Source: Escherichia coli (GTDB lineage Bacteria; Pseudomonadota; Gammaproteobacteria; Enterobacterales; Enterobacteriaceae). From it: a stretch of 64,000 nucleotides of DNA. Location of the stretch: NCBI RefSeq assembly GCF_029227855.1, contig NZ_CP074356.1. One strand, given 5' to 3'. Below are positions 47,870 to 48,487 of this stretch, piece after piece. Within the stretch, counting starts at the first letter, position 1, and every line of letters begins with the position of its first letter. The translations under genes were made by a program, and so were the position numbers. Under the pieces are notes generated by a model. It did no database searches. It was given only the letters and a program-made list of their open reading frames with translations, and was not told the origin of the DNA.

Positions 47870-48487
47870 CTATTTTGCGACAATCATGAATTCAGTCATT
47901 CCTCCCTCCAGCGGTAGCCGTACACCTGTTTCACCCAGCGACCGCGACCGTCGCCATGACCCAGATCCGTCGCCGTCAGCGCCAGTGACTCCTTTTCGCT
48001 GAATCCCTGCGCCAGTATCCAGGACTGTCGTATAACGGGGACGCCCGCCTTTGGTGCCAAATACCACTTTTAACCGGGTTTCACCGCGGGAAATGGCTTT
48101 CAGCCACGTTTTCAGCGACTGTGAACTCTGTACCGCCTCCTGCGAACGCAGCCCCATCAGCCGCGCAATCTCCAGCGCTGCTGCCAGCCCTGCGTCCTGA
48201 GTACGGGCTTTCTCCATCACCTGCCTGCGTCCAGCCTGTCTCAGCACGGCCCGCAACGCTGCCATTTCGTTTTGCAACGTTCGTAAACCAATATCCAGCT
48301 CCAGCCGTTCCTCAATGTAGCATTCGATATGGCGAACCTTGATCTGCTCCACCCGCTGGATCTGGATATTCAGCGCCCGTAAATGTTCACTGAACCGTTT
48401 TGTAATATGGATACGGTCATTCACCGTTGTGAAGCTGCCGCCCGCTTTCTTCGCCAGCGCCTTCATTTCACTGCTTAATTTACTCAT
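47870..48487 (-). CDS. Hypothetical protein; N-terminal region loosely resembles the SAM-like N-terminal domain of tyrosine recombinases (possible truncated recombinase)
   Basis: 205-aa ORF MSKLSSEMKALAKKAGGSFTTVNDRIHITKRFSEHLRALNIQIQRVEQIKVRHIECYIEERLELDIGLRTLQNEMAALRAVLRQAGR...; no catalytic domain follows. Assignment is by eye and tentative. Confidence 0.35.
   Translation of the reverse strand: MSKLSSEMKALAKKAGGSFTTVNDRIHITKRFSEHLRALNIQIQRVEQIKVRHIECYIEERLELDIGLRTLQNEMAALRAVLRQAGRRQVMEKARTQDAGLAAALEIARLMGLRSQEAVQSSQSLKTWLKAISRGETRLKVVFGTKGGRPRYTTVLDTGAGIQRKGVTGADGDGSGSWRRSRSLGETGVRLPLEGGMTEFMIVAK

What the first reader, a model, noticed from the sequence alone, without database searches (positions are those of the whole stretch)
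47870..48487. Possible truncated recombinase N-terminal domain protein
The first ~90 residues have the basic, helical character of a tyrosine-recombinase N-terminal (SAM-like) DNA-binding domain, but no catalytic domain follows and the C-terminal third is low-complexity. It may be a second degenerate recombinase in the island or a stand-alone DNA-binding protein. The assignment is tentative.
Basis: inference. Interest (0 to 1): 0.35.

Follow-up and report, generated by a model that had tools for sequence, protein, structure and literature searches.

The report
Decayed MpsA-like relaxase/recombinase pseudogene
The ORF is the wreck of a 294-residue tyrosine-recombinase-type gene, broken by two small deletions, in a 10.5-kb island at an E. 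coli tRNA-Asn gene; its family includes the SGI1 mobilisation relaxase MpsA, so it is an ordinary pseudogene.

Summary
ORF 47870-48487 (-) is real, and its first 90 residues match the Pfam integrase N-terminal domain PF12834 (E=7e-40).

It is not a domain-only protein. It is a pseudogene of a 294-aa gene (PF12834+PF12835) that is intact in about 325 of 5,426 complete E. coli genomes. Two repeat-flanked deletions broke it:
- A 99-bp in-frame deletion.
- A 194-bp frameshifting deletion that removes the H-x-x-R box and puts the His/Tyr nucleophile region out of frame.

The "low-complexity" tail is out-of-frame read-through. The original last 39 codons survive in another frame. RefSeq already annotates the same allele as a frameshifted pseudogene.

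New here: PF12835 is the family of MpsA, the tyrosine-recombinase-like relaxase of Salmonella genomic island 1. The gene sits convergent to a (also frameshifted) P4-like integrase inside an att-delimited tRNA-Asn island. An intact EFASI RNA motif, a 61-nt invariant GC-rich palindrome and clustered CTGCACCAG repeats precede it.

Most likely it is a dead mobilisation relaxase (MOB_M type) of a small, now immobilised mobilisable island. A dead site-specific recombinase is the main rival. Interest is low to moderate.

The parts
47896..48487 (-). Full extent of the pseudogene, from the ATG at 48487 to the original TGA stop at 47896-47898.
   Evidence: Alignment to the intact 885-nt alleles. The same span is annotated as a frameshifted pseudogene in RefSeq NZ_AP045174.1.
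47870..48487 (-). The 205-codon ORF as it reads now. Its last ~46 codons are out-of-frame read-through.
48218..48487 (-). N-terminal SAM-like / core-binding domain (residues 1-90).
   Evidence: PF12834, E=7.1e-40
48011..48235 (-). Remaining first half of the catalytic domain (residues 85-159). It keeps Arg-I (MGLRSQEA) and the GTKGGRPR hairpin lysine.
   Evidence: PF12835 positions 17-91 of 149, E=2.3e-28. Conserved columns R147, K179 and R184 in alignment A2.
48224..48225 (-). Junction of deletion 1: 99 bp, in frame. It removes codons 89-121 of the intact gene (interdomain linker and start of the first catalytic helix). Flanked by GCAGGTG(G/A)TGGAG direct repeats.
48015..48016 (-). Junction of deletion 2: 194 bp, frameshifting. 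It removes codons 191-255, including the H241-x-x-R244 box. Flanked by an exact 9-nt repeat, CTGGCGCAG.
47899..48015 (-). Out-of-frame remnant of the original C-terminus (residues 256-294, with H275 and the Y287 nucleophile).
   Evidence: tblastn: 100% identity over 39 aa in frame -2
48543..48670 (-). EFASI RNA motif (RF02957), full length. It is on the same strand as the gene and ends 55 nt before the ATG.
   Evidence: 100.8 bits against a gathering score of 51.2. Found in the same position in all seven loci with a 5'-complete gene, the window included.
48499..48565 (-). Hairpin CUCCGGCGU/ACGCCGGAG plus a U-rich tract, between EFASI and the ribosome-binding site. It looks like a terminator or attenuator.
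   Evidence: Both-sided changes keep the stem in L007, L011 and L009.
48844..48904 (-). 61-nt GC-rich block, invariant in four islands whose flanks are only ~60-70% identical. It is an imperfect palindrome 357-417 nt upstream of the ATG and a candidate oriT core.
   Evidence: Alignments A3 and A4. DNA fold z=-2.4. SGI1 oriT lies at a similar distance, about 300-430 nt upstream of mpsA.
48818..49176 (-). Four exact CTGCACCAG(A) repeats upstream of the gene on the gene's strand: 48818-26, 48845-53, 48980-88 and 49168-76.
   Evidence: All 7 exact copies in the 64-kb window lie in 47148-49176 (0.49 expected).
47148..47378 (+). Three exact CTGCACCAG repeats downstream of the gene in the opposite orientation: 47148-56, 47177-85 and 47370-78.
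   Evidence: The same layout is seen in the aspV T6SS island (L006, L007).
49404..49592 (-). Ner-like HTH_35 gene heading the same-strand module (HTH, then the intergenic region, then EFASI, then the gene).
   Evidence: PF13693, E=1.5e-23. The same order occurs in Salmonella locus L005.
45271..46532 (+). P4-like island integrase, frameshifted by a 1-nt deletion near 45705. It is convergent with the pseudogene.
45094..45109 (+). attL: the 16-nt 3' end of tRNA-Asn (tRNA at 45034-45109).
55647..55662 (+). attR: an exact 16-nt direct repeat of the tRNA-Asn 3' end. The island is 10,569 bp.

Best explanation
The ORF is a dead gene. Its ancestor encoded a 294-residue, two-domain tyrosine-recombinase-fold protein: a core-binding domain (PF12834) and a catalytic domain (PF12835) with the full R-K-H-R-H-Y set.

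Two slippage-type deletions between short direct repeats destroyed it. The 99-bp in-frame deletion removed the interdomain linker. The 194-bp deletion removed the H-x-x-R box and shifted the frame. The product now has no active site and ends in ~46 nonsense residues.

The ancestral gene most likely did not integrate or excise the island; the adjacent P4-like integrase does that. It most likely served as the island's mobilisation relaxase of the MpsA / MOB_M kind. Such a protein would bind and nick an origin of transfer in the conserved region just upstream, so that a co-resident conjugative element could export the excised island. That region holds the EFASI RNA, a 61-nt invariant GC-rich palindrome and CTGCACCAG repeats.

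In this genome the relaxase, the integrase and the Rhs cargo gene are all inactivated, while the upstream non-coding elements are intact. The island is therefore a fixed remnant.

Shown: the pseudogene status, the two lesions, family membership, the island borders, and the conservation of the upstream elements. Inferred: relaxase function, the oriT role of the upstream block, and the sgm-sRNA-like role of EFASI.
For: Pseudogene status:
- Alignment with the intact alleles WP_000041051.1 and WP_016247312.1 gives two deletions with repeat-flanked junctions.
- The C-terminal 39 aa survive in frame -2.
- RefSeq flags the same allele as frameshifted.
- SCU-102 is an intermediate with one deletion. 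N3 has a further 10-bp deletion.
- 325 of 5,426 genomes match at least 80% of the 885-nt intact gene; the sampled rows among them were annotated as intact genes. 64 genomes match the window's region at >=99% identity; all 25 that were listed are annotated as pseudogenes.

Family:
- The intact protein scores PF12834 E=2e-40 and PF12835 E=2e-59.
- 90 diverse relatives keep R147, K179, H241, R244, H275 and Y287.
- The AF2 model has pLDDT 96.6. Its best PDB matches are XerA, IntI4, XerH, lambda Int and Cre.

Relaxase reading:
- PF12835 is the signature used for MpsA (PMC10484663).
- I retrieved an SGI1-family mpsA (L008; R162/H247/R250/Y319 as published). It scores 43.4 bits on PF12835 against 19 bits on PF00589.
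- It aligns to the intact protein at 27% identity over 196 aa, E=2e-6.
- MOB_M relaxases are reported as often annotated as integrases, 96% next to an integrase, with oriT in the upstream intergenic region (bioRxiv 10.64898/2026.01.13.699239).
- Here the gene always sits about 0.7-1.4 kb from a P4-like integrase inside tRNA-Asn or tRNA-Asp islands with variable cargo: Rhs, T6SS, Kiwa, nuclease/helicase, or none.
- An 8-kb Caballeronia plasmid carries it in addition to a canonical tyrosine recombinase.

Geometry parallel to SGI1 (oriT, then the sgm-sRNA core, then a 9-bp IR, then mpsA): here the order is invariant palindrome at -357 to -417, EFASI at -56 to -183, a 9-bp-stem hairpin, then the ATG.

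No inversion of the segment was seen in 383 collinear genomes.
Against: - The only experimentally characterised PF12835 member, MpsA, is distant (27% identity).
- The other MOB_M archetype tested, TcpM, falls in PF00589, not PF12835.
- The intact family keeps a complete recombinase active site and its own core-binding domain, so sequence cannot separate nicking from strand exchange.
- There is no MpsB-like gene downstream.
- EFASI is not detectable upstream of mpsA in the SGI1-type locus.
- The inverted CTGCACCAG clusters on both sides of the gene would also suit recombinase binding sites.
- No nic site, helper element or transfer has been shown for this subfamily.
- The CONJscan MOB_M profile could not be run.
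Confidence: 0.6

Rival explanations
1. It is the decayed copy of a true site-specific recombinase: a second integrase/excisionase partner, a multimer resolvase, or an invertase acting on the CTGCACCAG repeat clusters that flank the gene in inverted orientation. On this view it is not a relaxase.
For: The intact relatives have the full two-domain tyrosine-recombinase fold and catalytic set. Exact 9-mer repeats flank the gene in opposite orientations, and this layout is conserved in an unrelated island. A 25-nt inverted pair lies at 47135-47159 and 48977-49001. Public annotation calls the protein an integrase.
Against: The islands already carry a P4-type integrase next to attL. No genome among 383 shows the segment inverted. 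The best Pfam family is the one containing the relaxase MpsA, not PF00589, where the intact protein scores 22 bits, below the cut-off. A small plasmid has it in addition to a canonical recombinase.
Confidence: 0.27
2. The truncated 205-aa product is still made and useful as a stand-alone DNA-binding protein. It could be an MpsB-like accessory factor, a repressor of the upstream region, or a dominant-negative blocker of related relaxases.
For: The ATG, a GAGGG ribosome-binding site, the upstream EFASI region and the whole N-terminal domain are intact. SGI1 uses a separate ~99-aa protein, MpsB, described as resembling the recombinase core-binding domain. The allele is present at >=99% identity in 64 genomes.
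Against: The product would carry half a catalytic domain lacking its first helix, plus ~46 nonsense residues. Lesions accumulate stepwise (one deletion in SCU-102, two here, three in N3). The window copy has a private K20T change. MpsB shows no detectable similarity to this N-terminal domain or to PF12834. Paralogues in the aspV island are also pseudogenes with different lesions. The exact 205-aa sequence is absent from a 15-billion-protein collection.
Confidence: 0.07
3. It is a chance ORF with no gene history.
For: None beyond the odd C-terminal tail.
Against: Pfam E-values of 7e-40 and 2e-28. About 96-97% nucleotide identity of the shared segments to the intact genes.
Confidence: 0

Closest known systems
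MpsA, the atypical (tyrosine-recombinase-like, MOB_M) relaxase of Salmonella genomic island 1 (Kiss et al. 2019, PMC6414798; Nagy et al. 2021, PMC9299015)
   Same: Both belong to Pfam family PF12835 and show pairwise similarity (E=2e-6). Shared motifs are GLRxxE, GTKGGRxR, HxxR and LGHG...Y. Both are encoded in an integrase-bearing island at a conserved chromosomal site. Both have a conserved GC-rich palindromic region a few hundred nt upstream and an RNA element directly upstream on the same strand.
   Different: Identity is only 27%. The E. coli protein matches PF12834 at its N-terminus and has no mpsB-like partner gene. The upstream RNA here is EFASI, which is not detectable in the SGI1-type locus. 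The island has no traG/N/H or other helper-manipulating genes. The copy in the window is dead.
E. coli / Enterobacterales 'integrase domain-containing protein' WP_000041051.1 / WP_016247312.1 (294 aa)
   Same: This is the direct intact orthologue. It lies at the same or a neighbouring tRNA-Asn locus with the same int-spacer-gene-EFASI layout, and its shared segments are about 96-97% (WP_000041051.1) or about 88% (WP_016247312.1) identical in DNA.
   Different: The window copy lacks 99 + 194 bp and is frameshifted.
EFASI RNA motif (Rfam RF02957, 'Enterobacteriaceae, Frequently Around STAXI and Integrases')
   Same: A full-length, high-scoring instance lies directly upstream of the gene. The 'integrases' in the family's name are proteins of this PF12834/PF12835 type. 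A K. aerogenes plasmid shows the canonical STAXI-EFASI-gene order.
   Different: There is no STAXI in the window, even at E<=10. Rfam gives no function. The link to MpsA-type relaxases and to the SGI1 sgm-sRNA is my inference.
Canonical tyrosine recombinases (XerC/D, XerH, lambda Int, Cre, IntI4)
   Same: The intact orthologue has the same fold and catalytic residues.
   Different: PF00589 scores only 22 bits, below its cut-off of 27.1. There is no arm-binding domain. The context is next to a separate integrase.

Membership tests
Pfam PF12834 (Phage_int_SAM_2, integrase N-terminal domain) | Profile match above the gathering score. | tested here: met
   Window ORF residues 1-90 match profile positions 1-90 of 91, at 135.9 bits against a cut-off of 22.
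Pfam PF12835 (Integrase_1 catalytic domain) | Profile match above the gathering score over the whole domain. | tested here: inconclusive
   The window ORF scores 99.4 bits (cut-off 23) but covers only profile positions 17-91 of 149. The intact orthologue covers 1-149 at 200 bits.
Tyrosine recombinase superfamily (active enzyme) | The catalytic set Arg-I, Lys, His-II, Arg-II, His/Trp-III and the Tyr nucleophile in one reading frame. | tested here: not met
   The window copy keeps R147 and K179 equivalents only. H241 and R244 are deleted. H275 and Y287 are in another frame.
Tyrosine recombinase superfamily (ancestral/intact gene) | A two-domain core-binding plus catalytic fold. | tested here: met
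   AF2 model with pLDDT 96.6. Foldseek probability 1.0 to XerA, IntI4, XerH, lambda Int and Cre, with TM ~0.6 to the DNA-bound structures (IntI4, XerH, lambda Int, Cre) and ~0.4 to XerA.
MOB_M relaxases (MpsA branch) | Detectable homology to an experimentally supported member. | tested here: met
   An SGI1-family MpsA (L008) is a PF12835 member at 43.4 bits. BLASTP against the intact orthologue gives E=2e-6, 27% identity over 196 aa. The match is weak. TcpM is not in PF12835.
MOB_M relaxases | Score of at least 84 on the CONJscan MOB_M profile (bioRxiv 10.64898/2026.01.13.699239). | not testable with these tools
   The profile is not available here.
MOB_M relaxases | Location inside an att-delimited integrative element near an integrase. 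| tested here: met
   attL at 45094-45109 and attR at 55647-55662. The integrase's 3' end lies 1.3 kb from the gene's 3' end. The same holds in 7 related loci.
MOB_M relaxases | A cognate oriT in the upstream intergenic region. | tested here: inconclusive
   Strongly conserved non-coding elements are present: EFASI, a 61-nt invariant palindrome and CTGCACCAG repeats. No nic site or transfer data exist.
MOB_M relaxases | Tyr-dependent nicking of oriT and mobilisation by a helper. | not testable with these tools
   This needs experiments.
SGI1-type mob module | A separate MpsB accessory gene downstream of the relaxase. | tested here: not met
   No ORF with a Pfam match lies in the 1.3-kb downstream spacer. 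MpsB shows no similarity to this N-terminal domain.
EFASI RNA (RF02957) | Covariance-model score above the gathering threshold over the full model. | tested here: met
   100.8 bits against 51.2, over model positions 1-133.
Invertible-segment recombinase (Fim/Hin-like logic) | The segment between inverted sites is found in both orientations in a population. | tested here: not met
   383 genomes are collinear over int-spacer-gene-upstream. No 40-60% coverage class appeared among the sampled rows.

The most novel reading that the evidence does not exclude
The orphan Rfam motif EFASI and the invariant palindrome and repeat array upstream of it may be the cis/trans transfer apparatus of a large, overlooked enterobacterial branch of MpsA-type (MOB_M) relaxases. 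On this reading EFASI is the functional counterpart of SGI1's essential sgm-sRNA, and the 61-nt block is the oriT. tRNA-Asn and tRNA-Asp islands that carry Rhs toxins, T6SS-1 or defence systems would then be, or have been, mobilisable elements. Copies like this one, with a dead relaxase but intact upstream elements, could still be mobilised in trans.
Probability: 0.35. Interest if true: 0.55.

Novelty: already known. Interest (0 to 1): 0.3.

Why it matters
For the window itself it matters little. It is one of three inactivated genes (integrase, this gene, Rhs) in a small fixed island, and RefSeq already marks it as a pseudogene.

The wider point is annotation. Proteins of this PF12834/PF12835 type are labelled 'integrase domain-containing' or 'DNA-binding prophage protein' in thousands of enterobacterial genomes. 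Their best-studied relative, however, is a conjugative relaxase.

If the family mobilises islands, two things follow:
- It would explain how small tRNA-linked islands with toxin, T6SS and anti-phage cargo spread.
- It would give the orphan EFASI (and perhaps STAXI) motifs a testable function.

Tried and rejected
- PDB sequence search with the intact protein: no hit.
- NCBIfam: only sub-threshold XerC matches.
- PHROGs: only the generic integrase family phrog_1.
- Cluster look-up for names or the accession numbers used as MOB_M seeds: only generic names.
- SGI1 primer sequences against complete E. coli genomes: no SGI1 there. The same primer against species-representative genomes gave a Rheinheimera SGI1-type locus, which I used as the MpsA reference.
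- pIGRK (MobK) and pCW3 under their GenBank accessions were not in the plasmid collection. pCW3 was found as NC_010937, and TcpM turned out to be PF00589, not PF12835.
- I first read the 3.9-kb asnT-yeeJ 'mini island' (L002) as a minimal int+relaxase+oriT element. I rejected this because it lacks the 5' half of EFASI and everything upstream, so it is a deletion derivative.
- I considered the CTGCACCAG repeats as arm-type sites of the P4-like integrase. I rejected this because they lie 2-4 kb from attL and about 6.5 kb or more from attR.
- STAXI was not found in the window, even at E<=10.
- The sigma-70 scan gave no convincing promoter for EFASI or the gene.
- The Weinberg 2017 paper has no searchable supplement for EFASI.

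Full report
**1. Observation**

The minus strand carries an ATG-initiated ORF of 205 codons at 47870-48487. Pfam places residues 1-90 in PF12834, the 'phage integrase N-terminal' SAM-like domain, over the whole profile (E=7.1e-40). Residues 85-159 fall in PF12835 'Integrase_1', but only over profile positions 17-91 of 149 (E=2.3e-28).

The statement that no catalytic domain follows is not correct.

**2. What happened to the gene**

In 5,426 complete E. coli genomes the region is chromosomal. It occurs at >=99% identity in 64 genomes, where RefSeq annotates it as 'phage integrase N-terminal domain-containing protein, frameshifted'.

Related genomes carry an intact 885-nt gene for a 294-aa 'integrase domain-containing protein' (WP_000041051.1, WP_016247312.1). 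With that gene as query, 325 genomes give at least 80% coverage. The deleted alleles give 69% or 79%.

Alignment and a scripted comparison show two lesions in the window:
- **Deletion 1** is 99 bp and in frame. It removes intact nt 264-362 (codons 89-121). Its junction is at 48225|48224, between GCAGGTG(G/A)TGGAG repeats.
- **Deletion 2** is 194 bp and frameshifting. It removes nt 572-765 (codons 191-255). Its junction is at 48016|48015, between exact CTGGCGCAG repeats.

After the second junction the ORF reads about 46 out-of-frame codons. This is the 'low-complexity third'. The original last 39 codons, containing LGHGDGRGRWVKQVY, survive 100% intact in frame -2 at 47899-48015.

The decay is stepwise:
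- Strain SCU-102 has only deletion 2.
- Strain N3 has both deletions plus a further 10-bp deletion at window 48089-48098.
- The window copy has a private K20T substitution.

This pattern is decay, not a maintained short protein.

**3. What the intact gene encodes**

The intact protein is PF12834 (residues 1-91) plus PF12835 (residues 102-250, 200 bits). PF00589 stays below its cut-off.

An exhaustive HMMER search found 735 clusters of relatives at the 50% identity level, mostly 285-300 aa long. In an alignment of 89 diverse members plus MpsA:
- R108, G145, E150, R184, R244, G274, H275 and Y287 are invariant.
- R147, K179, H241 and Y245 are at least 90% conserved.

This is the complete tyrosine-recombinase catalytic set.

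An AlphaFold2 model (pLDDT 96.6) matches XerA, IntI4, XerH, Tn1549 Int, lambda Int and Cre at Foldseek probability 1.0 (TM ~0.6 to the DNA-bound structures, ~0.4 to XerA). Mapped on the model, deletion 1 removes the interdomain linker and the start of the first catalytic helix. Deletion 2 removes three helices, including H241-x-x-R244. The window product cannot be catalytically active.

**4. Context**

A tRNA-Asn gene lies at 45034-45109. Its last 16 nt are repeated exactly at 55647-55662, which delimits a 10,569-bp island. Its contents, in order:
- a P4-like integrase (45271-46532, +), frameshifted by a 1-nt deletion;
- a 1.3-kb AT-rich non-coding spacer;
- the pseudogene (-);
- EFASI (-);
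- a Ner-like HTH_35 gene (-), a 153-aa ORF (-) and a C4/isrK-like antisense RNA region (-);
- an Rhs core gene and a TPR gene.

The backbone 'tRNA, then int, then the PF12835 gene on the opposite strand preceded by EFASI' recurs with different cargo:
- no cargo, at asnT-yeeJ (L002);
- Rhs (L001, L003, L004);
- MazEF plus a nuclease/helicase (L011);
- the T6SS-1 island at aspV (L006, L007, L012, where the gene is again a pseudogene);
- in Salmonella, in the other orientation, with Kiwa and a methyltransferase/DUF87 pair (L005).

**5. Relaxase rather than recombinase?**

Literature:
- PF12835 is the signature the Burrus group uses for MpsA, the atypical relaxase of Salmonella genomic island 1 (PMC10484663).
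- MpsA with MpsB, a 125-bp GC-rich oriT and the sgm-sRNA encoded between oriT and mpsA form the SGI1 mobilisation module (PMC6414798, PMC9299015).
- A 2026 preprint reports that such 'MOB_M' relaxases are the commonest relaxases in chromosomes. It says they are often annotated as integrases and that 96% lie next to an integrase. It places their candidate oriTs in the upstream intergenic region. It adds that relaxase-less islands can arise by recent MOB loss.

Direct test: using a primer from the SGI1 paper's supplement, I retrieved an SGI1-type locus (L008). Its 321-aa MpsA has the published R162/H247/R250/Y319.
- It scores 43.4 bits on PF12835 (cut-off 23) and only 19 bits on PF00589.
- It aligns with the intact E. 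coli protein at 27% identity over 196 residues (E=2e-6), including the N-terminal domain.

Supporting circumstantial points:
- The islands already have an integrase.
- An 8-kb Caballeronia plasmid carries this gene in addition to a canonical recombinase.
- 52 of the 67 plasmids with a homologue are typed 'non-mobilizable' by a tool that, according to the preprint, misses MpsA-type relaxases.

Caveats:
- TcpM of pCW3 is PF00589, not PF12835.
- There is no MpsB-like partner.
- EFASI is absent from the SGI1-type locus.
- The MOB_M profile could not be run.
- No experiment exists for this subfamily.

**6. Upstream elements**

**EFASI.** Rfam EFASI (RF02957) matches 48543-48670 (-) at 100.8 bits over the full model. 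It ends 55 nt before the ATG. The same arrangement holds in all seven loci with a 5'-complete gene, the window included. One of them is a K. aerogenes plasmid whose protein is only 47% identical and which also has STAXI 400 nt further upstream. EFASI RNA has been detected by RT-qPCR in an STEC strain (PMC12370729).

**Hairpin.** Between EFASI and the ribosome-binding site, a 9-bp-stem hairpin (CUCCGGCGU/ACGCCGGAG) is followed by a U-rich tract. The stem is kept through changes on both sides in other loci. It parallels the 9-bp IR where the SGI1 primary RNA is proposed to end.

**Invariant block.** Further upstream, a 61-nt GC-rich imperfect palindrome (48844-48904) is invariant in four islands whose flanks are only 60-70% identical. 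It lies 357-417 nt from the ATG. The SGI1 oriT lies about 300-430 nt from the mpsA ATG.

**Repeats.** All seven exact copies of CTGCACCAG in the 64-kb window (0.49 expected) lie between 47148 and 49176. Four are upstream on the gene's strand and three are downstream on the other strand. The layout is repeated in the aspV island.

These inverted clusters would also fit a recombinase. However, 383 genomes are collinear across the region and none of the sampled rows showed an inverted arrangement.

**7. Verdict**

The finding is a genuine but ordinary pseudogene, already flagged as such in RefSeq.

The added value is the family assignment: the MpsA/PF12835 branch, probably a mobilisation relaxase. 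A second gain is the observation that the orphan EFASI motif and a conserved palindrome/repeat array form a module with these genes. That module survives intact here although the enzyme is dead.

My probability estimates:
- about 0.97 that it is a pseudogene made by the two deletions;
- about 0.6 that the ancestral function was relaxase-type mobilisation;
- about 0.27 for a true site-specific recombinase;
- about 0.07 for a still-functional truncated protein.

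Noticed in passing
window 50104-50289 (-): A C4 antisense RNA (RF01695, 62 bits) is followed by sub-threshold isrK and c4-a1b1 target matches. They lie directly upstream of a 153-aa ORF with no Pfam match (49589-50050) and the HTH_35 gene. This resembles a P1/P7-type or Salmonella IsrK-type immunity/antirepressor control region sitting inside the island. The same unit occurs in L004 and L011.
   Followed up: partly
window 54172: The Rhs core gene (50572-) has a CAG-to-TAG change relative to the otherwise near-identical strain JNEC-KY178 (3 SNPs in 10,569 bp). This truncates it to 1200 aa instead of 1393 aa, just before the C-terminal toxin part. The island therefore has three inactivated genes: int, this gene and Rhs.
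   Followed up: yes
window 45271-46532 (+): The P4-like island integrase is frameshifted by a 1-nt deletion near 45705. It is intact in strains SCU-102 and G3/10.
   Followed up: yes
window 46533-47869: This is a 1.3-kb AT-rich spacer between the integrase and the pseudogene, with no annotated gene and no Pfam hit. It contains two 131-nt direct repeats (46734-46864 and 46962-47092, 73% identical), a 41-nt imperfect palindrome (46758-46843) and the three inverted CTGCACCAG copies. The spacer is collinear in hundreds of E. coli genomes. Its function is unknown; an oriV-like or binding-site array is possible.
   Followed up: partly
window 48755-48913 (+): RefSeq annotates a 52-aa 'hypothetical protein' (WP_000301065.1) here. 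It overlaps the 61-nt block, which is invariant at the nucleotide level with no wobble variation, and it has no Pfam match. It is probably not a real gene.
   Followed up: partly
window 49254-49297: A 20-bp near-perfect hairpin plus a T-run lies after the HTH_35 gene. The stem is kept by compensatory changes in Salmonella (alignment A4). It is a likely intrinsic terminator separating the HTH gene from the EFASI region.
   Followed up: partly
L002 5446-9408 (E. coli 17MR471): A 3.9-kb att-delimited remnant island lies between asnT and yeeJ. It holds only an integrase (with an internal stop), the spacer, an intact PF12835 gene and a 5'-truncated EFASI (64 bits). It is a deletion derivative of the same backbone.
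   Followed up: yes
L009 14160-15882 (K. aerogenes IncFIB/HI1B plasmid): This is the canonical STAXI (92.8 bits), EFASI (85.8 bits), PF12835 gene order, on a plasmid next to a tellurite-resistance cluster. The protein is only 47% identical to the E. coli one, so the RNA-gene linkage is old.
   Followed up: partly
L008 808-1773 (Rheinheimera nanhaiensis SGI1-type locus): MpsA residues 37-105 align with the PF12834-type N-terminal domain of the E. coli protein. MpsA therefore seems to have a core-binding-like domain of its own, contrary to the statement in PMC8152469 that TR-like relaxases lack one.
   Followed up: no
window 40801-40876, 43210-43285, 45034-45109: There are three identical tRNA-Asn genes within 4.4 kb (the asnV/asnU/asnW region with nac, cbl and yeeO). 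Only the third is occupied by an island here. The window also holds a His leader (8133-8256) and a cobalamin riboswitch (36408-36582), both ordinary.
   Followed up: no
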